DNA from: a virus
Reading direction: 5' to 3' (one strand)
Length of the DNA stretch: 37,172 nt
IMG/VR virus record: IMGVR_UViG_3300001832_000005
A program made the position numbers and the translations under genes. The notes beneath the pieces are model-generated. The model was not told the DNA's origin and ran no database searches. It saw only the letters and a program-made list of their open reading frames with translations. Shown here in pieces: positions 4,802-37,043 of this stretch (its first letter is position 1; every line of letters starts with the position of its first letter).

Positions 4802-5761
4802 ATGACTATTTCAAAACCAAGAGTAAAAGTTGAAGAGGAAATTCTTAATGACTTCATGAGAATCCTAGAGGAGAACAAAGATTCTAGGAATCCTTGGTCT
4901 AAACCTTGGACTCCTAGCTCTTCGGAGGGTCACATTAATTTCCTTACTGGTAACAAATATCAGGGCATGAATGTAATTATTCTTGAGATGTATCAATTCT
5001 CAAAAGGTTATGAACTACCTTGTTGGATAGGCTACCAACAGGCAAAAAAAGAGTTCAACTGCGTGCCTAGAAAAGGCTCAAAAGCTGCTCGCATAGTACG
5101 TCCTAATCCTATCAAGATTGATGCTAAAGATGACAACGGCAACCCTATTCTTGACAAAGAGGGCAACCCAGAATTTTTCATGAAAATGACATTCAAGGGT
5201 GCCACTGTTTTCAATATCGCTGACCTAGTAGGTCTTGATGATAAAGCTCAAGAAAAGCTAGACCAAAAAATTGCAAGCTTCAAAACTAAATGTGTTGAAA
5301 ATGCAAGGCCACTTGCTGAAAGATGCAAAGCTGCTCATGATCGCTTGATGATCTTTAAAGATGAGCTAGAGGGCGGTCTAAATCATGGCTCAGATTCAGC
5401 CTACTACAGGCACGATCTTGACTCAGTGACCATGCCAAATAGGGAAGACTTCAAGAATGATGAAGCTTATCTTTCAACACTGGCTCATGAGTTTGCTCAT
5501 GCTACAGGTCATAAGGATAGATTGAATCGTAAGTGGTTAAACAACTACGCTCAATACAGGCCTCAAGAAGAGTTGGTTGCAGAATTCTCAAGCGTGCTTT
5601 TAGCTAATCGCTTACAGATCACTTGCGATACTCAAAACCACGCTTCATACCTTGGCGGTTGGGCTTCAAGAATCAAGGATTCAAAGAACCCTGCTCAAGA
5701 GTTATTCAAGGTCTTTGCATACGCTTCCAAGGCTGCTAATACAGTACTAGGAGAAGCTTAA
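4802..5761 (+). CDS. ArdC-like protein: N-terminal ssDNA-binding-type domain plus C-terminal HExxH zincin domain
   Basis: NPWSKPW...YQGMNVIILE matches the ArdC N-domain pattern. LAHEFAHATGHKDRLNR and EELVAEFSSVLL match the metallopeptidase domain pattern. Confidence 0.75.
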   Translation: MTISKPRVKVEEEILNDFMRILEENKDSRNPWSKPWTPSSSEGHINFLTGNKYQGMNVIILEMYQFSKGYELPCWIGYQQAKKEFNCVPRKGSKAARIVRPNPIKIDAKDDNGNPILDKEGNPEFFMKMTFKGATVFNIADLVGLDDKAQEKLDQKIASFKTKCVENARPLAERCKAAHDRLMIFKDELEGGLNHGSDSAYYRHDLDSVTMPNREDFKNDEAYLSTLAHEFAHATGHKDRLNRKWLNNYAQYRPQEELVAEFSSVLLANRLQITCDTQNHASYLGGWASRIKDSKNPAQELFKVFAYASKAANTVLGEA

Positions 5762-8468: not shown

Positions 8469-9308
8469 ATGAAAAACAAAGTACCAACACTCAAGGAAGC
8501 TGCTTTCATAACCTACAAAAGGAGAAAGAACGGAGAGAAATCGGCTGATGATTTTCTCGTCAGCATGAAGCATAATATCCAAGCTCTTGGGAACATACCT
8601 GTAAACAAAATAACTACAAGTATGATTAGCAAGATGAATGACTACAACAAAGCAAGACCCAACTGCAACGAGGTAGTTAATAAAAAGATGGGGCATCTCA
8701 AGTTAGTACTTGATGATTGCAAAGATGATGGACACTTAACAATGCCTGAGTTTCCCAAGCCATTGAAGGTAAAGAAGAATAAGAAAGTTCATTACCTTAC
8801 AAATGAAATGGAGATTGAGCTATTGGATAAGGTCACAGAGCTAGGACATGATGAACATAGAGATGTATTCAAGTGCTTGATTGATCTAGGTTGCAGGTGC
8901 ATGGAGCTACTCACTCTTGAGAAAAGATTTATTGACTTTGAAAAGAATCAAATTACATTTCAAGAAAGGAAAAACGGAAGGCCAAACACTGTACCAATGA
9001 GTAACAAAGTAAGAGATATTATCAAGCCATACTATGACAAGTGCAATACGTTGGACTATGTATTCGACCATAATTATTATTGGGCTGAGAGTGTGTTCAA
9101 GAAGGTCAAGAAAGAACTAGGTTATGAGCAACACAAGTGGTACAGGATACATCTGTTTAGAGATACAGCAGGGTCAAGATTAGTACAACGTGGAGTACAT
9201 CTCTTGATAGTCAGAGATTGGTTAGGTCATGAAGATGTAAAGATGACAGAGAAGTATGCTCATCTTGCCCCTAACTCTATGCACTCAGTTGTGGAGGTCT
9301 TGAACTAA
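8469..9308 (+). CDS. int: Tyrosine recombinase / phage integrase (279 aa)
   Basis: Catalytic-type motifs: GCRCMELLTL (Arg), HLFRDTA (HxxR), WLGHEDVKMTEKYAHL (His and Tyr). Confidence 0.9.
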   Translation: MKNKVPTLKEAAFITYKRRKNGEKSADDFLVSMKHNIQALGNIPVNKITTSMISKMNDYNKARPNCNEVVNKKMGHLKLVLDDCKDDGHLTMPEFPKPLKVKKNKKVHYLTNEMEIELLDKVTELGHDEHRDVFKCLIDLGCRCMELLTLEKRFIDFEKNQITFQERKNGRPNTVPMSNKVRDIIKPYYDKCNTLDYVFDHNYYWAESVFKKVKKELGYEQHKWYRIHLFRDTAGSRLVQRGVHLLIVRDWLGHEDVKMTEKYAHLAPNSMHSVVEVLN

Positions 9309-9514
9309 TGAAGTTTACCGATAGCCAAATCTTTTTTATCAATGACTCGATAAGAAAAGAGTTAAATGAACAAGAAATATTTTTAAAATATTTAACTGAT
9401 CTAGCACAAAAAGAAAATGATTTAGTAAAGAAAAATAAGATCAATAAATCTGTTGAATTGTGTGTGCAAAAGATACAAGAACTTGAAGCGTTGAGAGGTT
9501 TACTTCATGAGTGA
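9308..9514 (+). CDS. Hypothetical coiled-coil protein (68 aa)
   Basis: TAATG junction with int, SD GGAGG, and an 8-nt overlap with the RNAP gene. Confidence 0.55.
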   Translation: MKFTDSQIFFINDSIRKELNEQEIFLKYLTDLAQKENDLVKKNKINKSVELCVQKIQELEALRGLLHE

Positions 9515-11909
9515 ACCAAGCAAGAAACAACTAGAGCTAGAGCAAAGTATTTTTAGCATCTCAGGGTATAACAAGATCAGTAAAAATAATAAACTCAGGG
9601 AGCAGGGAAGGGAGTCTGAAACATACTATGCTCGCAACATGATTGAAGCAGGGCTAGAGGAATTAACAAAGCAGACTCAGAACTATATATATAAATCCTT
9701 GAGTGGACAAGTAGGAGTCAAATCGTTAGCTGCTATATACCTAAATCAATTCCCTGATATTGACGTGGTTTCTTTTATAACTTTCAAGGTCATCATAGAC
9801 AACGTATCGCTAGGCAAAGTAACAACACAGGTAGCTATCAATATAGGTCAGATGTTGGAAGACGAAATGCGATACACAATCTTTGAAGAGCAAGACCCTA
9901 AACATTTCAAAGCAATCCAACATCATACCAGAGATACAAACCACCAAGGTTATAAAAAGAATATGGTCAGATCACACATGAGTAAGAAGGGCATAGAGTT
10001 CAAGACTTGGAGTAAAGAAAATAAATTAAAAATTGGTATGGTTCTGATTGACTTAGTTGTTAATCATATTGGAATGATAAAGCTTATAAACAAAAGGGTT
10101 GGCAAGACTACTACTTCATGCGTGGTCTTCACTGATGTAGCCGACAAGTGGATAAGAAAGAACAGAGCCAACCGCATAGCTGCTTATCCTTTGTATCTTC
10201 CTTGCTTCGATAAGCCCAAACAATATACAACTTTATTTGACGGAGGTTATTACACAGAGAGACTCAGGACTTCAGCTATCAAGACAACTAATCAAGAGAC
10301 ATTAAAAAAGTTACAAGAAGAAAACTTAACAGTATGTCTAAAGGCTCTAAACCTTGCGTCAAGTACTGCGTGGGGGGTAAATAAATTTGTGTTTGATATT
10401 CTTGTATATTGTTGGGAAGAAAGAATAGAAGTAGGTGGGTTGATTGATAGAGAGCCACTTGAATTACCAGTAAAGCCTGAAGGTTTTGGAGAAGATAAAG
10501 AGGTAACAAAACAATGGAGTTACCACGCAGGTTTAATTCATGATACAAACCACGCTAACAAAGTAAAGAGATTCCAAATACTTTCAATGATAGATACAGC
10601 AAAAAGTTATCTTGGGGAAAAATTTTTTCACGTTTATCAAATGGATTTTACTTCAAGACTTTATCCTGTTACCGCACACTTCCACCCACAGGGAACTGAT
10701 ATTGCCAGAGCCTTGCATCACTTCTATGAGGGTGCTGTTATCAAGACTAAGAAAGATGCTGATTGGTTGGCGATAGCAGGAGCTAATGCTTTTGGTTATA
10801 ACAAGTTGAGCTATGATGAAAGGCTAGAGTGGGCATACATAGAAGGGCAAGACTTTGCTGAACAGGTAGCACTCAACCCACTGGACAACATAGATATATG
10901 GGGTCAGGCAAAAGACCCTTGGCAATTCCTAGCTTGGTGTAGAGAGTGGTATGAATTTTGTCAGGTAGGATTGAAGGGAGAATATGTCTCACGTTTCTGT
11001 TGTTGTCTTGATGGTACTAACAATGGATACCAACATATTGCAGGGTTGATTTCATCTGAAGTACTAGCAAAGAAAGTTAATTTACAGAGAGCAAGTAAGC
11101 CACAGGATTTGTATAAAGATGTTCTAGTTAGAGTCATAGAAATACTTGACACAGATACAACAACGCAAGGCAAGAACTGGAATAAGATTTCAAAGCTGTT
11201 GACTAGAAAGTTTATAAAGAAACCAGTGCTGATGATTCCTTATAACTCAACGACCTTTGGCATAGCCAACTACATAGAAAAATATTTTGTCGCAAAAAAT
11301 ATTTCAATGGCAAAAAATTTTAAGAATAACTTTTACCTTGCTTCAGTAATCGAACAGGCTGTAAAAGATATATGTCCTGAAAGCTATCAAGTTTTAAATT
11401 ACTTGTCGAGGATAGCTCTATGTTTTAACAAAGAGAACAAGACTATCTCATGGCATACCCCCTCTGGGTTTCTAGTACAGCAGAAGTACTATACAAACCA
11501 GACTAAAAGAATCAAGACCAAGCTCAGTAATCAAACAGTTTACCTGAGTCTTGCCGAGCCTGACGAGAAGCTAGTCAATAAGAGAAAACAACTGCAAGGT
11601 TTCCCAAGTAATTATATACATTCCTTTGACGCTGCTCATCTACAGTTAAGCTTGGTTGAAGCAAGCAAGATGGATTTAAAACAGTTCTGTATTATTCATG
11701 ATTGCTTTGGTAGTCCTGCTGCTGAACTTGATAGGCTGATTGAATGTGTAAAGCAGACATTCTTCTACATATATAGTGATAATAATTTAGATAACTTACA
11801 TCATCAAGCAGCAGATCAATTAAGTAATACCAAGGGATTACCAACTGCACTACTGATGGGGGAGTTTGATATTACAGATGTGTTGACAGCACCATATATA
11901 TTTACATAG
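9507..11909 (+). CDS. T7-like single-subunit DNA-dependent RNA polymerase (800 aa)
   Basis: LDGTNNGYQH (motif A), KKPVLMIPYNSTTFG (cf. T7 KRSVMTLAYGS) and IIHDCFGS (motif C, cf. T7 HDSFG). Confidence 0.95.
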   Translation: MSEPSKKQLELEQSIFSISGYNKISKNNKLREQGRESETYYARNMIEAGLEELTKQTQNYIYKSLSGQVGVKSLAAIYLNQFPDIDVVSFITFKVIIDNVSLGKVTTQVAINIGQMLEDEMRYTIFEEQDPKHFKAIQHHTRDTNHQGYKKNMVRSHMSKKGIEFKTWSKENKLKIGMVLIDLVVNHIGMIKLINKRVGKTTTSCVVFTDVADKWIRKNRANRIAAYPLYLPCFDKPKQYTTLFDGGYYTERLRTSAIKTTNQETLKKLQEENLTVCLKALNLASSTAWGVNKFVFDILVYCWEERIEVGGLIDREPLELPVKPEGFGEDKEVTKQWSYHAGLIHDTNHANKVKRFQILSMIDTAKSYLGEKFFHVYQMDFTSRLYPVTAHFHPQGTDIARALHHFYEGAVIKTKKDADWLAIAGANAFGYNKLSYDERLEWAYIEGQDFAEQVALNPLDNIDIWGQAKDPWQFLAWCREWYEFCQVGLKGEYVSRFCCCLDGTNNGYQHIAGLISSEVLAKKVNLQRASKPQDLYKDVLVRVIEILDTDTTTQGKNWNKISKLLTRKFIKKPVLMIPYNSTTFGIANYIEKYFVAKNISMAKNFKNNFYLASVIEQAVKDICPESYQVLNYLSRIALCFNKENKTISWHTPSGFLVQQKYYTNQTKRIKTKLSNQTVYLSLAEPDEKLVNKRKQLQGFPSNYIHSFDAAHLQLSLVEASKMDLKQFCIIHDCFGSPAAELDRLIECVKQTFFYIYSDNNLDNLHHQAADQLSNTKGLPTALLMGEFDITDVLTAPYIFT

Positions 11910-28125: not shown

Positions 28126-31100
28126 ATGACAAGCACACCTATGAATGAAAACAACACAATGCAGACAGAGCTTGATGCTGCTGAAGGTGTAAAAGCTGTA
28201 GAAGAAACTAAAGAACAGATTAAAGAAGAAACTGCTCCAAAACTAAAGCCCAAACCAGTACCAAATCAAAACGAATTAACAGAAACAACAAATGCAGAAA
28301 TAGTCCAAGACCAAAAAGTTAAAGAAGAAGCAAAAAATATTTTTGGTGTTTCTGATACTAAATTACTTACAGAAGAACAAAAATATCTTGATGGATTGCA
28401 AAAAGGTTTAGATAAAGAAATAGAAGAATATAAAGCAAAAGAAGGAGATAATTTTGACAAAGCAGAATTTCAAAAGTTTTTAGATGGAAAACATAAAACT
28501 ATTACAACAAAAATAAGAAATGGAATAGTTAATGGAAATATTGAAAACATAAATAATATATATAAGTTAGGAGATGATATAGTCGATTATCTTCTTGGAG
28601 ATATTTACGACTCATCAAGACCTGCTGATTTTGAACTAATACCTCTAAAAAAACCTTTAAGTGAAAGGTCTAAATTTAGTCAAATTATAGGAGGATTTGA
28701 AGAAACAGAAGAAGATAGAAATGATACAGTATATGGAATATCAAAAGGATTAGCACAATACATATTACCTGCTTTTAAAACTCAAGGGCTTTTAAAAAAT
28801 GTTGGAGTTAAAAAATTTAGAGGTGGTCTGACAGGGGTTGGTGTAGGGGCTATTGCTGTTGACCCTTATGAAGATAAATTATTAGGTTGGTTATCAGAAA
28901 GAACTGACATAGCACCATTAATTAGAGATGTGCTAGGTAATGCAACAGAAGTAGATGAAGACGGAAATTTAAAACCTGCTGAAGAAAGATTAAAAGCAAG
29001 ACTATATTCTGTAGCAAATGATTTTATTACAGGAGAAATTTTGCTACCTGTTAGTATGAGAGCTACAGGAGCAGGAGTAAAAGAAATAAATAAACTTGCT
29101 AAGAAGACAGGTATAGACAAAGCAACAGCCAAGGTAATTTTTGGAATTAGAGATATTACAAAAGATAGTGCAGGAAAAGTAGGTAATGAAATGGTCGATT
29201 TCTTTATGAATCAAATTTACAACTTAAGAAATAAAGGAGGAGAAGAATTAAATAGATTAAAGGCAAATCTAAAAGCCATTATTCATAGAAGCGGTACAGA
29301 TATAGAAGAGCAAGTCTATGATTCTCAACAACAAAATTTGATGGAGAATCTTAATTTATATATGAAAAATATAAAAAACCACCCATTATTACAGAAATAT
29401 TATATGGGTGGAGATGGAGAATCTTTAAGTGCAGTTCCTTTAAGAGGTAAAAAGATAACAAGAACTTTAAATGCTAGAGATTTATCTAGGTATTTTAAAG
29501 GTAAAAATGGCAAAAATTTTGCAGACAAAGAAGCAATAGTTGATTTTATTATGGCTAGAGGTGCAGCTTTGAAAGCTTCAGTAAAGCCTAACAGTAGAAC
29601 ATGGAAGGCTATGCAAGCAAAGGCAAGAACTCAATTACCTTTAGATACTGTAAATGTATTAACTGATTTTATAGATCAATATGGTAAAGGTGGAGACTTT
29701 GATTTGGAAGCTTCTATTATTGCATTGAACGATATTGTTAATGAAACTGCAATAGTTTTACAAGATTTAACGCAAAGTATGGACGATCAGTTAAGACTTA
29801 AAAGAGCAGGAAAAATGGATACAGTTTATTATGACAGATTAAAAAAAGATTTTGCTTTTAGTTTAAAATTTTTTGATTCTATCTTAGGTATTAAACGACA
29901 AACTATTGCCCCTGTATCAAGAGCTTTAAGCTTATCAAACGTAACTTCAGGAAAGCTTACAAAAAAAGGATTAAGTAATTTAAAAAACCTAAGAGAAGAT
30001 GAAATCATATCAGAAAACATACAAAGAAAAGCAAGAATAAAAAATGCAGAAGATATGGTTAATCCTAATGACCCTCTAGGAGAATTTGATATTGAAGATA
30101 TTATAAAGTTGGCAGATAGCGGAGATACAAAAGCGTTACAGCAAACAATTAGAAGACTTAACATGGCAGCTACAAATCCAAAAGCTTTGAAAGCAATCAT
30201 GGCTGCACAAAAAGGTAATGGAGTTATAAAAATAAGTAATCATTTATTTATTAATTCAATTCTTTCAAGCCCAATTACACATCAAGTTAATATTCTTTCT
30301 ACTGGTATAAATACATTTATGCGACCTACTGCAAAATTTGTAGGTGCTGAAAGAAAAGAAGAAAGAATAAGAGCTTTAAAAGAACTACAGTACTTGATGT
30401 CAACTTCTTTTGAATCCATGAAGATGGGTGTTGTTGCTTTCAGAGCAAATAGAAATATTGTTGATGCAAGTGCATCATTATTAGATGGTCAATCTGCACA
30501 GCAGTTAATGATGGAAGGGTGGACAGGTACAAGAGGAGCTTTAGGTAGAGCCTTTATGAACGGATACGGATTACCTAGCAGATTTCTTATGGCAGAAGAT
30601 GAAGTATTTAAGCAGATAAATTTTAGAGCATTTGTTAGGACTGAGATTTGGGAAAGAACACATAGAGCTATGGAAAGAGGTACACGCAAATTTGCTACTC
30701 GCACAGACTATAACAAGTACGTTAATAATCAATTCAATAGTATTATGGACGTAATTAATAGAGAATCAGTAGAAGGAAAATTATCAAAAAGAAATTTAGA
30801 ATTATTAGATAGAGCTAGAAAATATGCAGCAGAAGCAACATTTACAGAAGATTTAAAAGAAGGTTCTTTTTCTGAAGCATTTACTAATTTAGTAAACGAA
30901 TATCCTTTAGCAAGACAAATAGTTCCTTTTATTAGAACTCCTATAAACATCACAAAACAAGCTTTTAACGCAAGTCCACTTGCTCTACTTGTTGAAATGC
31001 AAGACACAAGAGTAGGAAAACTTACAGGTATGTCGTGGGCTAGTAAAAATGTTTTAAGAAAAGCAAGTTGGTTAGATCAACATTATGCAGACCTGACTTC

Positions 31101-32553
31101 TAAAGACAAAGGTGTAAGAGCTTTAGCTAGAGGAAGAACTAGAATAGGCTCGTCAGTTTTTGCAGGTTCAATATATTTATCTCATCAAGCAAATGACCCT
31201 GAAGCTCCTGTAGCAATTACAGGAGGTTTCCCTAAGAGTTTGGCAAAAAGAGAAATACTGGTTAACCAAGGCTTTCAACCATATTCAATTAGATTACTTG
31301 CAACAGAGGAAGACATAAAAAAATATGGTAGAAAAGGAGAAGCTTATGAAGTTGTTATGGGAGAAAACGATCAAGTTAAGTATGTAAGAGGAGCAGATGG
31401 AAAAATTAAATATAAATATTGGAGTTATAAAAGATTAGAACCTTATGCAAGTTTTCTTTCTGTAGCTGCTGACTTTACAAGAATTACAGGTTATATGGGA
31501 GAAGAACAGTTATTAGAAAAAGAAGCTATACAACAAGTGGTTCAAGCTGCTGTATATGACTCAACTATAGATAAAACTTTCTTAGATGGTATTGCTGAGT
31601 TATTCCAATTAGTAGAACGACCTTATCAATTAAATGCTTTCTTAGCAAGAAGAGTTGCACAAACAGTTATTCCTTTTTCAGGAGCTATGAAGTTTGTTAA
31701 AAATGCAAAGAATAGCTATGGAGAATATGGCGATATTGCTATGAATAAGCGTGTCGCTAAAGGTCAATATGAAGGAGATATAAACCCTTTAATATTTGCA
31801 CAAAGAGTTTTAAACGAAGCAGCAGGAACAACCCCTTTTGGAGATGCAAACGCAATACCTTATCAGAATCATATAACTGGTAAGTACACTATTAAACCAA
31901 CAGGCTTTGGAAAAGATGAAATGAATATCTTTTTTGATGGTCACGCAACAGAAACAGTTTCAGTAAATGACCCTGTAATGACAATATTAATGGAAACTGG
32001 CAGAGAGTTTGCAAGACCTGATATGACGATTTACCCTAAAAGTTCAACTAACCCTAAAGCTTTATTTACAGATGACACAGAATATAAAGATTTAGTTTAT
32101 TCAACAGCTACTTATACAAAGGGTTCTTTACAAAAAACTATGTATCAAACTATGGAAGATTGGATAAATAATAACCAAGAAGTAATTAATAGAATGAGAA
32201 TGAAGCCAGACGATTTAAGATGGGATAATTTAACTCCAAAGTTAAGAAAAAAATATGCAAGACTTTTTCAAGTTACTGATTTAAGTAAAGAGGATTTTGA
32301 TAAAGCTACAAGAGTTGAATTAATTTATATGGCAAGAGAAGAAGTCGGAGATGCTATGGCAGAAATTCATGAAGAATATAAAAGAGATGCTAAAAAGTTT
32401 TGGATAGAAAATAACTTTAGAAAAATGAGTCCAGAAAAATATAATGATTTTAATAATAGAAGAAGAAAAAATAGTAAATTATATGACACACTTGTATCGG
32501 ATAGTAGAATTGATATATTAGAAGACTTTGCTTCTCTTAATCTACTTGGCTAA
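28126..32553 (+). CDS. Large internal core/ejection protein, gp16 position (1475 aa)
   Basis: Size and synteny fit. No lytic transglycosylase motif seen. Confidence 0.7.
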   Translation: MTSTPMNENNTMQTELDAAEGVKAVEETKEQIKEETAPKLKPKPVPNQNELTETTNAEIVQDQKVKEEAKNIFGVSDTKLLTEEQKYLDGLQKGLDKEIEEYKAKEGDNFDKAEFQKFLDGKHKTITTKIRNGIVNGNIENINNIYKLGDDIVDYLLGDIYDSSRPADFELIPLKKPLSERSKFSQIIGGFEETEEDRNDTVYGISKGLAQYILPAFKTQGLLKNVGVKKFRGGLTGVGVGAIAVDPYEDKLLGWLSERTDIAPLIRDVLGNATEVDEDGNLKPAEERLKARLYSVANDFITGEILLPVSMRATGAGVKEINKLAKKTGIDKATAKVIFGIRDITKDSAGKVGNEMVDFFMNQIYNLRNKGGEELNRLKANLKAIIHRSGTDIEEQVYDSQQQNLMENLNLYMKNIKNHPLLQKYYMGGDGESLSAVPLRGKKITRTLNARDLSRYFKGKNGKNFADKEAIVDFIMARGAALKASVKPNSRTWKAMQAKARTQLPLDTVNVLTDFIDQYGKGGDFDLEASIIALNDIVNETAIVLQDLTQSMDDQLRLKRAGKMDTVYYDRLKKDFAFSLKFFDSILGIKRQTIAPVSRALSLSNVTSGKLTKKGLSNLKNLREDEIISENIQRKARIKNAEDMVNPNDPLGEFDIEDIIKLADSGDTKALQQTIRRLNMAATNPKALKAIMAAQKGNGVIKISNHLFINSILSSPITHQVNILSTGINTFMRPTAKFVGAERKEERIRALKELQYLMSTSFESMKMGVVAFRANRNIVDASASLLDGQSAQQLMMEGWTGTRGALGRAFMNGYGLPSRFLMAEDEVFKQINFRAFVRTEIWERTHRAMERGTRKFATRTDYNKYVNNQFNSIMDVINRESVEGKLSKRNLELLDRARKYAAEATFTEDLKEGSFSEAFTNLVNEYPLARQIVPFIRTPINITKQAFNASPLALLVEMQDTRVGKLTGMSWASKNVLRKASWLDQHYADLTSKDKGVRALARGRTRIGSSVFAGSIYLSHQANDPEAPVAITGGFPKSLAKREILVNQGFQPYSIRLLATEEDIKKYGRKGEAYEVVMGENDQVKYVRGADGKIKYKYWSYKRLEPYASFLSVAADFTRITGYMGEEQLLEKEAIQQVVQAAVYDSTIDKTFLDGIAELFQLVERPYQLNAFLARRVAQTVIPFSGAMKFVKNAKNSYGEYGDIAMNKRVAKGQYEGDINPLIFAQRVLNEAAGTTPFGDANAIPYQNHITGKYTIKPTGFGKDEMNIFFDGHATETVSVNDPVMTILMETGREFARPDMTIYPKSSTNPKALFTDDTEYKDLVYSTATYTKGSLQKTMYQTMEDWINNNQEVINRMRMKPDDLRWDNLTPKLRKKYARLFQVTDLSKEDFDKATRVELIYMAREEVGDAMAEIHEEYKRDAKKFWIENNFRKMSPEKYNDFNNRRRKNSKLYDTLVSDSRIDILEDFASLNLLG

Positions 32554-32555
32554 CT

Positions 32556-33503
32556 ATGGCTGTCAACAACACCAACACGTTTACTAATCACACAGGAAAC
32601 GGAACTGAAGTTAATTTTGCTATTAGCTTTTCATACATATCCATTCTAGGAATAACTGTAACAATAGATGAAGTAATCAAAACTATTGATACTGACTATA
32701 CAATTACAGGTCAACAATTAACTTTTGTTACTGCTCCTGCAAATGGTGTTGCGATTAAGTTTCAAAGAAATACTGATATTAGTTTGCCAGTTGTTGACTT
32801 TCAAGATGGTTCAGTTCTTACAGAGCTTGATCTTGATACAGGATTAAGACAGGTATTGTTTGCACAGCAAGAAAATGCAGATGACGCAGCAGCAGGAATT
32901 GTACCAGACGGAGAACATCTAACAGCTAACGGAAAAAGAATAGGTGGTGTAGAAAGCCCTGTCAGTGACACAGATGTTGCAAACAAAGCGTACACAGATT
33001 TATTTTTAAAGAGAGATGGCTCGTTACCTTTAACAGGAGAGGTTAATTCAGGCGGTAATAAAATAACAAACTTAGGAGATGCAACAAATGCAAATGACGC
33101 TGTTACAAAAGGGCAACTAGACGCAGGTATTGGAAATGCTCAATCTGCTGTTAATACATCAACTACCAAAGCACAAGAAGCATCTGACTCCGCAGATGAC
33201 GCACAAGGCTTTGCAAATGAAGCAAAAGGTTATAGAGATGAAGCTAATGTTGCAAAAGGTATTGCTCAAAATTTAGCTAGAGTTTCAGTATTTTTAGGTT
33301 TTAAACGTGAAGATGATGGAATGTTAGTAATGGAATATAGCACCGCAGCAGATCAATTATCCCCACAAAAGGTTTACAAAACAGAAGATTATTACCAAAA
33401 TGGGGCAAGTCATGCTTTCTTCTTAGGAGAAGATATACTAAACTCAAATGGTATTCCTGCTATTAGTTTTGATTACACTGGCACCCTTATCCTTGACATT
33501 TAA
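32556..33503 (+). CDS. Tail fibre/adaptor with a T7 gp17-like N-terminal tail-attachment domain (315 aa)
   Basis: FTNHTGNGTEVNFAISFSY..., DFQDGSVLTELDLD and NGKRIGGVESPVSDTDVANKAYTD parallel the T7 gp17 N-domain. Confidence 0.88.
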   Translation: MAVNNTNTFTNHTGNGTEVNFAISFSYISILGITVTIDEVIKTIDTDYTITGQQLTFVTAPANGVAIKFQRNTDISLPVVDFQDGSVLTELDLDTGLRQVLFAQQENADDAAAGIVPDGEHLTANGKRIGGVESPVSDTDVANKAYTDLFLKRDGSLPLTGEVNSGGNKITNLGDATNANDAVTKGQLDAGIGNAQSAVNTSTTKAQEASDSADDAQGFANEAKGYRDEANVAKGIAQNLARVSVFLGFKREDDGMLVMEYSTAADQLSPQKVYKTEDYYQNGASHAFFLGEDILNSNGIPAISFDYTGTLILDI

Positions 33504-33505
33504 TT

Positions 33506-36500
33506 ATGGCACAAATTGATTTAGGCAAACTTAAGTTTAACTTCATGGGGGAGTGGAACAATAGCACTGCCTACAAAAAAGATGACGTAGTTTATTACGA
33601 AGGTTCAACTTATGTTTATAGGTCAGATGTAAACGCAAACGCAGGAACACCACCTCAAAATACACATCTTGGCAGTGTTTGTGATTTGATGGCACTGGGT
33701 ATTAATTATAGAGGAGCTTGGCAAAGTGGAACTAATTACTACAAAGGAGATTTAGTTGATTGGCAAAATGCAAAATATTTATTTATAGGTACTGGAAATA
33801 ATAACGTAAATACTTTTAGTCCTACCGCAGCAGGTTATACAAGTCTTTGGTCAGTGTTTATTCCTGCCAACCCTGCTGATGTTTTAACAACAAGTGGCGA
33901 CTTGTTAATGAGAGAGAATGACGGAGTAGCAAATGTAAGATTGCCAGTAGGTAAGAAAGGACAATCTATAACAGTAATAGAAAAACCAGACCAAGATATA
34001 CCAAACGATAAAAACTTTGACTATGCTCCTTTTACTGGTAATGGAGATGCCCTTGGTTCTGGTATGGTTAGGTGGTTACTAGGAGATGAGAGAGAAACTT
34101 ATGAATCAATTACTTATACAGTTACAGTGGCAACAGGTGCTAGTAATACAAATCAGTTTCACATGAGTGGAGGTAGTCTTTCTGGAACTGTTGAAAGACC
34201 TACACTAGATATAAAGATTGGGTCACAATATATCTTTGATGTTAGTGACGCTAGTAATACAGGTCATGTTTTAGCTTTTAGACACTGGACAGGTAGTTCT
34301 TATCCAGAAGTTGCTGTTGAAGCTGAGATGGGTATAACAAGATCAGGAACAGCAGGTCAGGCAGGAGCAACAATAACTTGGGTTCCTACACCTGCTTCTC
34401 AATATGTTTTAAGATATTTCTGCTCTGTTCACTCAAGTATGAGTGATGGTATTTTTGCTACTAACTTTACTAGAGGACAGCAATTCCCTAAGATTTACAG
34501 ATCGCCAACACAAACTACTGCTGTCAAACTTTCAAAAGGAAAAACTTATTCATTTACGTTTCCTGCGAACCAAAGAACTTACTCAATAAAAGATACTGCT
34601 GACTCAAACTATAACCCAACTCTTACAGGTGGTCGTTATGAAAAAGGAGTCAGCCCAACCTCTGTTACTAATGGAGGAACTATAAGTTTTACTGTTCCTG
34701 ATGATGCACCACAAACATTAAGTTTAGAAGATCAAAACGGAGGAGGAGATGCTCTGACTTTCAGTATTAAAGATAGAGCTTTTGTTCCTTCTTATGGAGG
34801 TGGAGATTTTAGTGAAAAAAGTGTTCTTAGTTCTGTAAAAGAAAACTATCAACAAAACACAGCAGGAATACTTCAATTTAATAATTTCATTAACCAAGCA
34901 GGTAATACATATACAGAATCAATAAAAGCTTTACCTGATTATTTGAAGAAGGTAGGTCGAGGGTATGTGTATGGTTGTAACTCTGGAATGTATAGACAGG
35001 GTGGATATATAGGAAAGAGAGAAACTCATTTATGGGGTAACTTTTACCATGATGGTAACGATTATGTATATGGTGGTGGTGTTGGATTAGATGGAAACAA
35101 CGCAACTAATGGTAGTAGATGGCACCCAAACAAAGGAAGTAAGGTACAAGGCTACAAGCTAAGACAGGCACTAGCAGGTAATCCTGACTATGCTCATCTT
35201 CTTACAGATTTGCTTGGTAATAATTGCGATATGTTAGATGATAGCGGAAACATAGTTCATAGATTTCCTAAAGTTTTATCAGTTCATGGTAATAGAGCTA
35301 TCAAATATCATTTATGTGAAAATGGTATGGTCTGGTTTAGTGGATATAACGGATATGGATTAATGGGAGATGGAGGAACTAGAGATAGAAACGAAGTGCA
35401 AGCACCTATGAAATGGTATGACGAAAGTACATCTGAATTAAAAGGCACTAACTATCCAAAAATTAAACAGCTAGTAACTACTCATGGTCATACTATGGAC
35501 ACTAATAGTACTGATTATGGTTCAACTTACGCAGTAGATATAAACGGATTTTTATACAGTTGGGGTTACAACGGATATGGACAGTTAGGAGATGGAACTA
35601 ATAACGGAAATAACTACGCAAAGAGAGTACCCGCTAGTGTATTTAATAATGAGAAAGTATTATATGTAACTTGTAGTGGCTATAGATATACACACGTTAT
35701 GGTTATTACTGAATCAGGTAAGTGTTGGGCAACAGGTTATGGAGATCAAGGTCAACTAGGATTAAATAACACATCTAGTAGAAATGAGTTTGCTGAAGTA
35801 ACAGCAGTTAGCGGTTCTCCTTTAAATGGCAAGAAAATAATTCACATAATAATGAACCAAGATGCTGACGCAGAAGGTAGAACATGGTGGTTAACAGACG
35901 AAGGTAAGGTTTATTACGCAGGTTACTTTAGAGATTACGGACAGCAAACAGGTGTGTATGACTCTAGCGGTTCGGGAACTAATGGTATGCCTAGAATACT
36001 TACTAACTCAAGTACTCTATGGAATAGTGATGACCAAAAAGTTATTTATATGGTTTGTACTAATGTCAGATATTCAACTTTATGGTTTATAACAGATGGC
36101 GGTTCTACTGGTATGGAACAGAAAATATACTCAACAGCATCTAATTACTATGGAGTACAAGGAACTAATAATTCTCCTAATAGCCATACTAACTCTCCAT
36201 CTTTAGGTGGTTGGTTTGGTGGAGAAATATTGTTCTCTGACTTTGGAGACTTTGAAGATGGTGGAGATAACAGCAGACCGAATGAAGCTATAGGTAACTG
36301 GTCTAGTTTCCAAGATGGTGGTAGTAATGAAAAGAAAATGAAGATAGGTAAAATAATTGAGATTATTCCTAGAGGTACACCTGAGAATACATATAACTCT
36401 GTTGTCGTAATGGACGAGTTCGGTTCATTATTCTTTGCAGGTTATTGGAACTACACACCAAGTAGATCAAATGAAAATGATGGACAGCATTATTTAATAT

Positions 36501-36733
36501 ATCAAAATCACTGGGTTCCTTATTTTATTCACTGGCCTGACCAACCTTCACAATGTATGGAAAATGGATTCTGTCATCTTGGATATGGTACAGAAAATGG
36601 TTGGTTCTGGTTAAGTAGATTTGGAGATGTATATACAGGTGGAGATAATTCTTGGTATCAGCAATCAGATTACAATAGTAGTGGATATGATTGCGGATTC
36701 CCAAGTTGGACTACACTAGATACAAACGGATAA
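33506..36733 (+). CDS. Receptor-binding tail fibre (1075 aa): CBM5/12-like repeats, cupredoxin-like domain, RCC1-like propeller
   Basis: Position is after the adaptor gene. Domain motifs are listed in the findings. Confidence 0.75.
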   Translation: MAQIDLGKLKFNFMGEWNNSTAYKKDDVVYYEGSTYVYRSDVNANAGTPPQNTHLGSVCDLMALGINYRGAWQSGTNYYKGDLVDWQNAKYLFIGTGNNNVNTFSPTAAGYTSLWSVFIPANPADVLTTSGDLLMRENDGVANVRLPVGKKGQSITVIEKPDQDIPNDKNFDYAPFTGNGDALGSGMVRWLLGDERETYESITYTVTVATGASNTNQFHMSGGSLSGTVERPTLDIKIGSQYIFDVSDASNTGHVLAFRHWTGSSYPEVAVEAEMGITRSGTAGQAGATITWVPTPASQYVLRYFCSVHSSMSDGIFATNFTRGQQFPKIYRSPTQTTAVKLSKGKTYSFTFPANQRTYSIKDTADSNYNPTLTGGRYEKGVSPTSVTNGGTISFTVPDDAPQTLSLEDQNGGGDALTFSIKDRAFVPSYGGGDFSEKSVLSSVKENYQQNTAGILQFNNFINQAGNTYTESIKALPDYLKKVGRGYVYGCNSGMYRQGGYIGKRETHLWGNFYHDGNDYVYGGGVGLDGNNATNGSRWHPNKGSKVQGYKLRQALAGNPDYAHLLTDLLGNNCDMLDDSGNIVHRFPKVLSVHGNRAIKYHLCENGMVWFSGYNGYGLMGDGGTRDRNEVQAPMKWYDESTSELKGTNYPKIKQLVTTHGHTMDTNSTDYGSTYAVDINGFLYSWGYNGYGQLGDGTNNGNNYAKRVPASVFNNEKVLYVTCSGYRYTHVMVITESGKCWATGYGDQGQLGLNNTSSRNEFAEVTAVSGSPLNGKKIIHIIMNQDADAEGRTWWLTDEGKVYYAGYFRDYGQQTGVYDSSGSGTNGMPRILTNSSTLWNSDDQKVIYMVCTNVRYSTLWFITDGGSTGMEQKIYSTASNYYGVQGTNNSPNSHTNSPSLGGWFGGEILFSDFGDFEDGGDNSRPNEAIGNWSSFQDGGSNEKKMKIGKIIEIIPRGTPENTYNSVVVMDEFGSLFFAGYWNYTPSRSNENDGQHYLIYQNHWVPYFIHWPDQPSQCMENGFCHLGYGTENGWFWLSRFGDVYTGGDNSWYQQSDYNSSGYDCGFPSWTTLDTNG

Positions 36734-36737
36734 ACTT

Positions 36738-37043
36738 ATGGACGAATTTAAAACTTTTTCTGAAGTCAAATCACTTTATACTAAGTGGTATAAACACGAA
36801 CTAACAGGCAAAACTGCTTCTAACGGAGTGGGTATGATGGAAAAAGTAGCTGATAAAGCTAAAGATAAGCACTGGCTAAAGCTACTTGACCCATTTAAAA
36901 ACGATACAACAGAACTAAAGTATGGAATAGTTGTAGCGGAAGCAAACTTTGACCCTACTAACTGGGTTAATGATTCTGTTACTCTTACTGAAATGACTAC
37001 AGACGAACAAACAGCAGCGAAGAAGTTAGTTAACTGGGATTAA
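36738..37043 (+). CDS. Hypothetical protein (101 aa)
   Basis: ORF track entry, packed 4 nt after the fibre gene. Confidence 0.55.
   Translation: MDEFKTFSEVKSLYTKWYKHELTGKTASNGVGMMEKVADKAKDKHWLKLLDPFKNDTTELKYGIVVAEANFDPTNWVNDSVTLTEMTTDEQTAAKKLVNWD

What the first reader, a model, noticed from the sequence alone, without database searches (positions are those of the whole stretch)
34105..34460. Cupredoxin-like domain with a full type-1 copper ligand set embedded in the tail fibre
Residues about 200-318 of the 1075-aa fibre read like a plastocyanin/amicyanin-type blue copper domain. The stretch PTLDIKIGSQYIFDVSDASNTGHVLAF parallels the plastocyanin segment ending in the first His ligand (...GEKIVFKNNAGFPHNIVF). 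The stretch GATITWVPTPASQYVLRYFCSVHSSMSDG gives the Y-x-C-x2-H-x2-M spacing seen in amicyanin (YHCTPHPFM). The candidate ligands are His254 (34265), Cys306 (34421), His309 (34430) and Met312 (34439). A second beta-sandwich-like segment follows without the ligands. Cupredoxin folds used purely as scaffolds normally lose these residues, so retention of all four suggests real metal binding in an extracellular receptor-binding protein. I am not aware that this has been described for phage fibres.
Basis: partly seen in the sequence, partly recalled or inferred. Interest (0 to 1): 0.72.

Follow-up and report, generated by a model that had tools for sequence, protein, structure and literature searches.

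The report
Copper-site cupredoxin module in phage fibre
The tail-fibre protein of this marine cyanophage carries a small domain related to blue-copper proteins such as plastocyanin, with its four metal-binding residues strictly conserved, and the same module recurs in fibres of many ocean phages, so these virus particles probably carry a bound metal, likely copper.

Summary
Residues 200-322 of the 1075-aa ORF (33506-36733, +) form a discrete beta-sandwich domain, and His254, Cys306, His309 and Met312 sit at the stated coordinates. The motif alone is only borderline unusual: 5.5% of shuffled proteomes contain C..H..M. The supporting evidence is stronger.

- All 31 orthologous fibres examined (down to 42% identity) keep all four residues.
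- The domain belongs to a large family, with 1014 representative proteins at E<=1e-3. Its members are marine phage fibre and virion proteins, often with the domain in tandem.
- Family copies either keep His-Cys-His together or lose all three.
- Copies that keep the set contain exactly one Cys.
- The ligand columns are among the most strongly co-varying pairs.
- Homology to cupredoxins holds transitively. The phage family matches a marine Flavobacteriaceae 'plastocyanin' domain (hhalign 98%, E 2e-13), which matches plastocyanin, pseudoazurin and amicyanin in PDB (E 8e-6 to 2e-4).
- The AlphaFold model (pLDDT 94) puts the four residues at the cupredoxin ligand positions.

Direct Pfam and PDB-fold matches are weak. 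Ligand distances could not be measured, and metal binding is untested. No paper describing this was found. Verdict: a divergent cupredoxin with an intact type-1-style site used as a virion module, which is a new variant of a known kind.

The parts
32556..33503 (+). 315-aa gene carrying the T7 gp17-type N-terminal tail-fibre adaptor domain plus a YadA-stalk-like segment. It is the probable attachment partner of the 1075-aa protein.
   Evidence: Pfam PF03906 Phage_T7_tail E 1.2e-27, aa 6-151; YadA_stalk E 7.7e-5.
33506..36733 (+). 1075-aa distal fibre / receptor-binding protein (end coordinate includes the stop codon).
   Evidence: ORF listing. It lies after the gp16-like gene in a T7-like structural module. 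PHROG tail-fibre hits phrog_9851 and phrog_30742.
33536..33976 (+). N-terminal region (aa 11-157) with CBM5/12-like repeats, shared with cyanomyophage tail fibres.
   Evidence: phrog_9851 E 5e-20; CBM_5_12 E 0.0035, below the curated cut-off; tblastn to the S-CAM1 tail fibre.
34103..34471 (+). Cupredoxin-like domain (aa 200-322), the subject of the finding.
   Evidence: AF2 model pLDDT 94.1, pTM 0.88. 1014 representative homologues. hhalign to the A2 'plastocyanin' family 98%, E 2.3e-13. A2 matches PDB plastocyanin, pseudoazurin and amicyanin at E 8e-6 to 2e-4.
34235..34258 (+). F-D-V-S-D-A-S-N motif (aa 244-251) directly upstream of the first His. It is the most conserved stretch of the family and has no counterpart in classical cupredoxins.
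   Evidence: Column frequencies F 97%, D 76%, S 76%, D 77%, S/T 97%, N 79%. Conserved in both HCH and non-HCH copies.
34265..34267 (+). His254 codon, candidate N-terminal His ligand.
   Evidence: (invariant).
34421..34423 (+). Cys306 codon, candidate thiolate ligand and the only Cys in the domain.
34430..34432 (+). His309 codon, candidate C-terminal His ligand.
34439..34441 (+). Met312 codon, candidate axial ligand.
34493..34798 (+). Second beta-sandwich (aa ~330-431), a degenerate copy of the same domain that lacks the ligands.
   Evidence: The family HMM hits aa 339-415 in the window and its orthologues, with R/D/G at the ligand columns. phrog_677 E 0.016. pLDDT 73-85 in the otherwise poor full-length model.
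35315..35935 (+). Core of the RCC1-like beta-propeller region (aa 604-810), the probable receptor-binding head. The propeller probably extends beyond these limits.
   Evidence: Pfam WD40_RLD E 1.8e-23; RCC1 E 3.4e-12, above the curated cut-off.

Best explanation
Residues 200-322 of the fibre protein are a divergent member of the cupredoxin (blue-copper) fold family. The domain has kept a working type-1-style metal site made of His254, Cys306, His309 and Met312, with the short amicyanin-type C-x2-H-x2-M loop. The bound ion is most likely copper, with zinc as the main alternative. It ties the loop before strand 5 to the last loop of the sandwich and caps the only cysteine. This makes a compact, rigid, oxidation-resistant module in the shaft between the N-terminal CBM-like repeats and the C-terminal RCC1-like propeller head. 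The module is a portable building block of marine phage virion proteins. It occurs singly or in tandem arrays of up to 26 copies, as a spacer or adhesion unit in the way Ig-like repeats are used elsewhere. The second sandwich in this protein is a copy that has lost the site. Shown here: the homology, the ligand conservation and co-variation, the ligand positions in the model's secondary structure, and the distribution. Inferred: that a metal is bound, which metal it is, and that its role is structural rather than redox.
For: The ligands are invariant in 14 full-length orthologues and 17 IMG/VR orthologues.

Family-wide co-variation:
- Among 319 domain instances, 150 have H-C-H-M, and the rest lose H, C and H together (YESM, NSNM, QSSM and others).
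- By MI-APC, C306-H309 is the strongest pair, and H254-H309 and H254-C306 rank 5 and 9 of 4560 long-range pairs.
- HCH copies have exactly one Cys in 163 of 164 cases, and non-HCH copies have none in 104 of 115.
- Pro follows His1 in 85% of HCH copies against 18% of the others.

Homology to cupredoxins:
- The phage profile matches the A2 family at 98%, E 2.3e-13, over 91 columns with the bridging sequence removed.
- A2 matches plastocyanin 7zqe_M at E 8e-6, pseudoazurin 3tu6 at 2e-5 and amicyanin at 4e-5, and all of the top 60 hits are cupredoxins.
- 19 of the 27 weak PDB hits of the phage profile are cupredoxins with the ligands in register.
- PF00127 is the Pfam family matched by most members, 6 of 36.

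Structure: the model has pLDDT 94.1. His254 comes just before strand 57-61, Cys306 ends strand 102-107, and His309 and Met312 lie in the loop before the last strand. The highest TM-scores in PDB are to the cupredoxin domain of Hyphomicrobium nitrite reductase (0.54-0.56).

Module use:
- Tandem copies occur in giant phage fibre proteins.
- 102 phage isolates carry the domain, all marine, in genes annotated as tail fibre, baseplate or virion structural protein.
- The site is intact in fibres of Pelagibacter phage Mosig, Methylophilales phage Melnitz, S-TIM5, S-MbCM7 and P-SCSP2.
Against: - The window domain has no direct Pfam, NCBIfam or PDB-sequence hit.
- Direct profile comparison with classical cupredoxins is weak (probability 13-82%).
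- Foldseek against PDB gives no E<1e-3, and Ig V-domains are mixed with cupredoxins among the top hits.
- The Asn that follows the first His in classical cupredoxins is Val here and Pro in most of the family.
- Virion proteins fold in the cytoplasm. Classical cupredoxins are loaded with copper after export, and those expressed in the cytoplasm often pick up Zn (established knowledge), so copper occupancy is uncertain.
- Met312 is also kept in 78% of copies that lack the other three ligands, so it may be partly a core residue.
- The share of HCHM copies is estimated from the 150 best hits to an HCHM query and is probably biased upward.
Confidence: 0.6

Rival explanations
1. The site is real but binds zinc (or another cytoplasmically available ion) as a purely structural clamp, and the virion never carries copper.
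For: The conservation and co-variation evidence is the same as for the best explanation. Virion proteins fold in the cytoplasm, where free Cu is negligible, and type-1 sites are known to accept Zn in recombinant cytoplasmic expression (established knowledge). The classical second-sphere Asn after His1 is missing.
Against: His2-Cys-Met with a C-x2-H-x2/3-M loop is the type-1 copper signature. Structural Zn sites rarely use Met, yet Met is 91% conserved in HCH copies. The nearest relatives with solved structures are all copper proteins.
Confidence: 0.2
2. The copper is functional rather than structural. The fibre uses a redox-active or metal-presenting site at the host surface, for example as a trigger that senses the redox state near the cell, or as bait recognised by a host metal-uptake receptor. 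This would be a copper analogue of the 'Ferrojan Horse' idea for iron in tail fibres.
For: The ligand set is intact and strictly conserved in proteins that contact the host. The family is restricted to marine phages, which live where trace metals are scarce. The Ferrojan Horse hypothesis exists for iron (bioRxiv 10.1101/674382 abstract).
Against: - The domain lies in the shaft, not at the distal end, which is an RCC1-like propeller.
- It is used in long tandem arrays in which about half the copies have lost the site.
- It also occurs in a head-module protein.
- Its hosts are unrelated (cyanobacteria, SAR11, OM43).
- No redox partner is evident.
Confidence: 0.1
3. There is no metal. The four residues are kept for packing or hydrogen bonding in a beta-sandwich scaffold, and the likeness to a type-1 site is a relic of ancestry.
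For: Met312 stays conserved in copies without the other ligands. The fold search is ambiguous between Ig-like and cupredoxin. The domain is clearly viable without the site, since about 40-50% of copies lack it.
Against: - Loss of His, Cys and His is all-or-none, and their co-variation ranks at the top.
- A lone unpaired Cys is invariant in a protein exposed to oxic seawater, and Cys is absent from copies that lack the His pair.
- The four residues are invariant at 42% overall identity.
Confidence: 0.08
4. It is a chance motif in an Ig-like domain, with no relationship to cupredoxins.
For: The motif alone appears in 5.5% of shuffled proteomes. There is no direct Pfam hit. Antibody V-domains are among the top Foldseek hits.
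Against: The transitive full-length profile homology is significant at both steps. A giant phage fibre (P0019) carries phage-type copies next to a copy that passes the PF00127 gathering score. The weak PDB hits are enriched for cupredoxins, 19 of 27.
Confidence: 0.02

Closest known systems
Amicyanin, plastocyanin and pseudoazurin (single-domain type-1 blue copper proteins; Pfam PF00127)
   Same: A beta-sandwich of about 100 aa. The first His follows a 'G-x-x-h-x-F ... G-(x)-H' hairpin. An aromatic-aromatic-Cys ends the penultimate strand. The loop is C-x2-H-x2-M as in amicyanin, or x3 in many family members, followed by G-x-h-x-h as the last strand.
   Different: - There is no significant direct sequence match.
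- Pro or Val follows His1 instead of Asn.
- An extra conserved F-D-x-S-D-x-S-N motif and a G-T-x-G-x-x-G-A motif are present.
- It is not a free, exported electron carrier but a module inside cytoplasmically assembled virion proteins, often in tandem, and many copies lack the site.
C-terminal 'plastocyanin' domain of DUF285/LRR surface proteins of marine Flavobacteriaceae (alignment A2; named 'plastocyanin' by JGI)
   Same: Clear homologue over the whole domain (hhalign 98%, E 2.3e-13) with the same H ... C-x2-H-x2-M set. It is likewise an appendage of a large extracellular protein in marine organisms.
   Different: It is cellular rather than viral. It lacks the FDxSDxSN motif (it has 'VNASGHPF'). 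It is closer to classical cupredoxins (PDB E 8e-6; PF00127 E about 0.003).
N-terminal cupredoxin domain of three-domain nitrite reductase from Hyphomicrobium denitrificans (2dv6, 6tfo)
   Same: Best structural superposition in PDB (TMq 0.54-0.56, Foldseek probability 1.00). It is a cupredoxin used as an appended domain.
   Different: E-values are only 0.01-0.02 and identity is 11-14%. There the domain feeds electrons to an enzyme, and no enzyme partner exists in the fibre.
Ig-like / beta-sandwich decoration and spacer domains of phage virions (Hoc-type, BIg, FN3)
   Same: The usage pattern matches: a small beta-sandwich inserted singly or in tandem in fibres, baseplate and head proteins and exchanged among phages. 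Ig V-domains appear among the fold hits.
   Different: Those domains carry no metal-ligand set. Here a type-1 set is conserved and co-varies. Pfam Ig/FN3 models match at most 1 of 36 members, against 6 for Copper-bind.
Metal sites in phage fibres (the His-coordinated Fe of T4 gp37, which underlies the 'Ferrojan Horse' hypothesis)
   Same: A metal is bound by conserved residues of a tail-fibre protein, with possible relevance to marine trace-metal pools (details of gp37 from established knowledge).
   Different: In gp37 the ions lie on the trimer axis and are bound by His from three chains. Here the site would lie within one monomeric cupredoxin domain and use Cys and Met.

Membership tests
Cupredoxin / type-1 blue copper proteins (PF00127 Copper-bind; Pfam cupredoxin clan) | Significant sequence-profile match to the family | tested here: inconclusive
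   The window domain has no Pfam hit at E<=1. 6 of 36 family members hit PF00127 below the curated cut-off, best E 4e-4. The transitive link is significant: phage family to A2 at E 2.3e-13, and A2 to PDB cupredoxins at E 8e-6. A neighbouring domain in phage fibre P0019 passes the PF00127 gathering score, 24.2 against 21.2 bits.
Cupredoxin / type-1 blue copper proteins | Ligand set His ... Cys-x(2-4)-His-x(2-4)-Met, with the first His about 40-55 residues upstream | tested here: met
   H254, C306, H309 and M312 are present, and the spacing C-x2-H-x2-M is that of amicyanin. They are invariant in 31 orthologues. In the family, the spacing is x2 in 90 HCH copies and x3 in 64.
Cupredoxin / type-1 blue copper proteins | Greek-key beta-sandwich with Cys at the end of the penultimate strand, His and Met in the last loop, and the first His at the start of the central strand | tested here: inconclusive
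   In the pLDDT-94 model the order of secondary-structure elements and the ligand positions fit. The best PDB TM-scores are to cupredoxin domains (0.54-0.56), and 21 of the top 50 hits are cupredoxin-fold proteins. However, no hit reaches E<1e-3 and Ig domains are interleaved. Strand pairing could not be inspected.
Cupredoxin / type-1 blue copper proteins | The four ligand side chains converge within bonding distance of one point | not testable with these tools
   Model coordinates are not returned. The only indirect evidence is the strong co-variation of the ligand columns and their alignment to ligands of solved structures.
Cupredoxin / type-1 blue copper proteins | Conserved Asn directly after the first His (second-sphere hydrogen bond) | tested here: not met
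   The residue is Val255 in the window and Pro in 85% of HCH copies. This is not universal in the family, since rusticyanin has Ser (own knowledge), so it weakens but does not exclude membership.
Cupredoxin / type-1 blue copper proteins | Binds Cu, with a band near 600 nm, small A-parallel in EPR and a high reduction potential | not testable with these tools
   This needs protein chemistry.
T7-type tail fibre (gp17) | N-terminal adaptor/nozzle-binding domain (PF03906) | tested here: not met
   The domain is absent from the 1075-aa ORF and present on the separate upstream 315-aa gene 32556-33503, E 1.2e-27. The 1075-aa protein is therefore a distal or second fibre component, not a complete gp17 homologue.
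Ig-like phage decoration domains | Match to Ig, FN3 or BIg profiles, or Ig topology | tested here: inconclusive
   Only single members hit fn3 or Ig models at E 0.04-0.12. Ig V-domains appear among the Foldseek hits with lower TM-scores (0.36-0.45) than cupredoxins.
Pfam PF25489 At5g54830-like domain | Score above the gathering threshold | tested here: not met
   There is no hit for the window domain. 3 of 36 members hit weakly. One distant relative, P0176, passes at 28.2 against 27 bits.

The most novel reading that the evidence does not exclude
Marine phage virions carry stoichiometric copper in cupredoxin modules of their fibres, and the copper is used. In one version the module is a redox- or metal-dependent switch for adsorption or ejection. 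In another it is bait for host envelope proteins that handle copper or cupredoxins, a copper counterpart of the Ferrojan Horse idea. Because the module is common in cyanophages, pelagiphages and OM43 phages, virions would then also be an unrecognised class of strong organic copper ligands in seawater.
Probability: 0.1. Interest if true: 0.85.

Novelty: new variant of a known kind. Interest (0 to 1): 0.66.

Why it matters
Cupredoxins are textbook soluble electron carriers of the periplasm and thylakoid lumen. Finding a divergent branch with an intact type-1 ligand set as a standard building block of virion fibres is unexpected for three reasons:
- The particles are assembled in the cytoplasm and released into oxic, copper-poor seawater.
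- The module occurs in more than 1000 protein clusters and more than 100 cultured marine phages, including phages of Prochlorococcus, Synechococcus, SAR11 and OM43.
- It is not captured by Pfam, NCBIfam or PHROG annotation.

If metal binding is confirmed, this would be the first metallo-cupredoxin in a virus particle. It would give a handle on fibre stability and host recognition in the most abundant ocean phages, and it would add phages to the discussion of trace-metal (Cu) speciation. It is directly testable, because cultured systems carry the intact site: P-SCSP2 on MED4, Mosig on HTCC1062, Melnitz on H5P1 and S-TIM5 on WH8102.

Tried and rejected
- Direct Pfam, NCBIfam and PDB-sequence searches with the window domain gave no cupredoxin hit.
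- The word-indexed protein search with the single domain found only one near-identical fragment.
- Foldseek against PDB was ambiguous between Ig-like and cupredoxin, with no E<1e-3.
- Direct hhalign of the phage profile against single classical cupredoxins, or a 4-sequence cupredoxin alignment, gave probabilities of only 5-82% and in one case a 2-residue shift at the first His.
- The search for related loci with alignment A1 failed because no stretch was conserved enough.
With 7 sequences it gave pLDDT 46.7, which is unusable for domain arrangement.
- An exact look-up of the window protein in public assemblies found it not on record.
- The idea that the domain derives from the host or phage petE (plastocyanin auxiliary gene) was rejected. 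Similarity to plastocyanin is too remote, and the module also occurs in phages of non-photosynthetic SAR11 and OM43.
- The idea that the A2 domain is the Bacteroidetes T9SS C-terminal sorting domain was rejected, because it matches no such Pfam model and does match cupredoxin.
- Eight literature searches (cupredoxin, plastocyanin-like or copper-binding combined with phage, tail fiber, cyanophage or RBP) found nothing relevant. The MPP-C genome and cryo-EM papers do not resolve or mention the distal fibre.
Full report
**Context.** The window is a T7-like marine podovirus. It encodes an RNA polymerase, primase-helicase, portal, Gp10A-like capsid protein, tail tube, nozzle, terminase and an integrase, but no DNA polymerase. 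GC content is 36%. Its closest cultured relative is Prochlorococcus phage P-SCSP2, with 65% portal identity and the same gene order. P-SCSP2 belongs to the MPP-C cyanopodoviruses that lack a DNA polymerase gene (PMC9860041). After the large internal-core gene (28126-32553) comes a 315-aa gene (32556-33503) that carries the T7 gp17 N-terminal adaptor domain (PF03906, E 1e-27). The 1075-aa ORF 33506-36733, which holds the finding, follows it. This ORF has no adaptor domain of its own, so calling it a 'fibre' is an inference. The inference rests on its position, on PHROG tail-fibre hits (phrog_9851 E 5e-20; phrog_30742) and on its layout:
- CBM5/12-like repeats (aa 11-157);
- the candidate domain (aa 200-322);
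- a second sandwich (aa ~330-431);
- an RCC1-like beta-propeller (Pfam hits aa 604-810).

**The observation.** C..H..M occurs once in the 10,409 aa of the window's ORFs. As a bare motif it is only borderline, because 5.5% of shuffled proteomes contain one. The case therefore depends on homologues.

**Homologues and ligand conservation.** An exhaustive phmmer search with aa 190-330 found 1014 representative proteins at E<=1e-3, with 43 at E<=1e-10. Many are giant proteins with the domain in tandem, up to 26 copies by HMM.
- Four full-length orthologues at 41-65% identity, one 367-aa N-terminal relative (P0009, 43%) and 17 IMG/VR orthologues (56-97% identity in the domain) all keep H-C-H-M.
- In a 14-sequence full-length alignment the four residues are invariant while mean column identity is 66%.
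- Among 319 domain instances, 150 have all four residues. Most of the rest have lost His, Cys and His together, giving patterns such as Y-E-S-M, N-S-N-M and Q-S-S-M.
- By MI with APC correction, C306-H309 is the strongest pair. H254-H309 and H254-C306 rank 5th and 9th of 4560 pairs separated by at least 4 residues.
- Copies with the His-Cys-His triad contain exactly one cysteine in 163 of 164 cases. Copies without it contain none in 104 of 115 cases.
- Pro follows the first His in 85% of intact copies against 18% of degenerate ones.

An invariant, unpaired cysteine in a protein that works in oxic seawater, gained and lost together with two histidines, is what a metal site predicts. A packing role does not predict it. 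One caveat applies: the intact fraction comes from the 150 best hits to an intact query and is probably an overestimate.

**Is it a cupredoxin?** Direct evidence is weak.
- The window domain has no Pfam, NCBIfam or PDB-sequence hit.
- A profile of 36 family members finds no PDB chain below E 0.1. Even so, 19 of its 27 hits at E<10 are plastocyanins, pseudoazurin, nitrite reductases or multicopper oxidases, with the His and the Cys-His-Met in register.
- PF00127 is the Pfam family hit by the most members, 6 of 36, with best E 4e-4.

The decisive link is transitive. The profile retrieves a family of C-terminal domains of DUF285/LRR surface proteins from marine Flavobacteriaceae (alignment A2), which JGI labels 'plastocyanin'. 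After the one bridging sequence was removed from the phage alignment, hhalign between the two families gave 98% probability and E 2.3e-13 over 91 columns. The A2 profile in turn hits plastocyanin (7zqe_M, E 8e-6), pseudoazurin (2e-5) and amicyanin (4e-5 to 2e-4). Every one of its 60 listed hits is a cupredoxin. A 3263-aa phage fibre protein, P0019, sits between tail-collar genes and two 2OG-Fe(II) oxygenases. It contains phage-type copies next to a copy that passes the PF00127 gathering score.

**Structure.** AlphaFold2 on aa 200-322 with the 36-sequence alignment gave pLDDT 94.1 and pTM 0.88. The order of elements matches a cupredoxin:
- a hairpin 'P-T-L-x-I-x-x-G-x-x-Y-x-F', then a short turn;
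- His254 two residues before the next strand (256-260);
- a short helix, then two strands;
- a strand ending in Tyr-Phe-Cys306;
- His309 and Met312 in the following loop, then a last strand.

Foldseek against PDB gave no hit below E 1e-3. The best TM-scores (0.54-0.56) are to the N-terminal cupredoxin domain of Hyphomicrobium nitrite reductase, and 21 of the top 50 hits are cupredoxin-fold proteins (CotA, factor V/VIII, pseudoazurin with an amicyanin loop, rusticyanin). Antibody V-domains are interleaved among them. Foldseek against BFVD gave 43 hits at E<1e-3, nearly all cyanophage tail-fibre, baseplate or virion structural proteins. Model coordinates are not returned, so I could not measure the distances between ligands. 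This remains the main computational gap. A full-length model from 7 sequences had pLDDT 46.7 and was not used.

**Distribution.** tblastn with a near-consensus domain against 50,697 phage records found 102 records, all marine: Synechococcus 51, 'Cyanophage' 19, Prochlorococcus 19, Pelagibacter 4, Methylophilales 4, and others uncultured. There were none among the thousands of enterobacterial, Pseudomonas or Klebsiella phages. The matched genes are annotated as tail fiber, baseplate wedge tail fiber connector or virion structural protein. Intact sites are present in the following:
- the Pelagibacter phage Mosig fibre;
- the Methylophilales phage Melnitz fibre;
- S-TIM5 and S-MbCM7 virion proteins;
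- P-SCSP2 gene 33, a 437-aa 'hypothetical protein'.

A 180-aa one-domain protein lies in the head module of a marine siphophage. The second sandwich of the window protein is a degenerate copy of the same domain.

**Mechanism.** The best-supported reading is a metal-clamped cupredoxin module. The ion cross-links the loop before strand 5 to the C-terminal loop, protects the sole thiol and rigidifies a spacer or adhesion unit in the fibre shaft. Established knowledge that metal greatly stabilises azurin and plastocyanin supports this role. Tandem use, frequent loss of the site, occurrence in head proteins and unrelated hosts all argue for a structural role over a redox or receptor-mimic one. Copper is the natural candidate for a His2-Cys-Met site, but virions assemble in the cytoplasm, so Zn occupancy is a serious alternative. 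My estimates are:

| Claim | Probability |
|---|---|
| Cupredoxin homology | about 0.9 |
| A metal is bound | about 0.75 |
| The metal is copper in native virions | about 0.5 |
| The role is mainly structural | about 0.6 |

**Novelty.** No paper linking cupredoxins to phage fibres was found. The cryo-EM study of the related phage P-SCSP1u did not resolve the distal fibre (PMC10575957). Automatic JGI names ('plastocyanin') exist for a few relatives. The fold and site type are known. The viral structural context, the divergent subfamily with its own FDxSDxSN motif, and the marine restriction are new. I therefore classify it as a new variant of a known kind, with interest about 0.66.

Noticed in passing
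window 1-37172 (integrase 8469-9308; RNAP 9507-11909): The window is nearly a whole genome of an MPP-C-type cyanopodovirus. It has no DNA polymerase, carries an integrase, has 36% GC and is syntenic with Prochlorococcus phage P-SCSP2 (65% portal identity).
   Followed up: partly
window 4802-5761 (+): A 319-aa protein combines an ArdC N-terminal domain with a zincin-like metallopeptidase (MPTase-PolyVal). This is an anti-restriction-type protein in the early region of the phage.
   Followed up: no
window 32556-33503 and 33506-36733: The fibre is split. The T7 gp17 adaptor domain plus a YadA-stalk-like segment is on a 315-aa gene, and the 1075-aa protein with the binding domains is a separate ORF in another frame, 2 nt downstream. 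P-SCSP2 instead has a 1103-aa gene followed by a 437-aa gene that starts with the cupredoxin-like domain.
   Followed up: partly
window 34235-34258 (aa 244-251, F-D-V-S-D-A-S-N): This is the most conserved stretch of the family, in copies both with and without the metal ligands, and it lies directly before His254. It has no counterpart in classical cupredoxins. It may be a second (Ca-type?) site or an obligatory turn, and it is unexplained.
   Followed up: partly
window 35315-35935 and beyond (aa ~600-860): An RCC1-like beta-propeller forms the C-terminal half of the fibre. Its nearest phage matches are RCC1-domain proteins of Clostridioides phages. It is probably the receptor-binding head.
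   Followed up: no
L068 and L069, 10001-19792 (P0019, 3263 aa): A giant phage fibre protein mixes 7-8 phage-type copies, one canonical PF00127 cupredoxin copy and four YHYH domains. It is flanked by tail-collar genes, a tail assembly chaperone and two 2OG-Fe(II) oxygenase genes.
   Followed up: partly
L002 8001-8543 (P0162, 180 aa): A single-domain protein with an intact H-C-H-M set lies in the head-morphogenesis module of a marine siphophage, between a Gp77-like gene and the prohead protease. The module is therefore not confined to tails.
   Followed up: no
L029-L065 (marine Flavobacteriaceae/Bacteroidetes MAGs, Marivirga): The closest cellular relatives form the extreme C-terminus of DUF285/BspA-like LRR surface proteins, which is a cupredoxin-like domain on bacterial surface adhesins. 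The direction of exchange between phage and cell is unknown.
   Followed up: partly
P0176 (191 aa, metagenomic): A relative with an intact H-C-H-M set (E 1e-13 to the family profile) passes the gathering score of Pfam PF25489 'At5g54830-like domain'. This suggests that the plant-named family is also a cupredoxin-like domain.
   Followed up: no
window 36738-37043 (+): A 101-aa ORF directly after the fibre gene has no Pfam or PHROG match. Its position suggests a fibre assembly or accessory protein.
   Followed up: no
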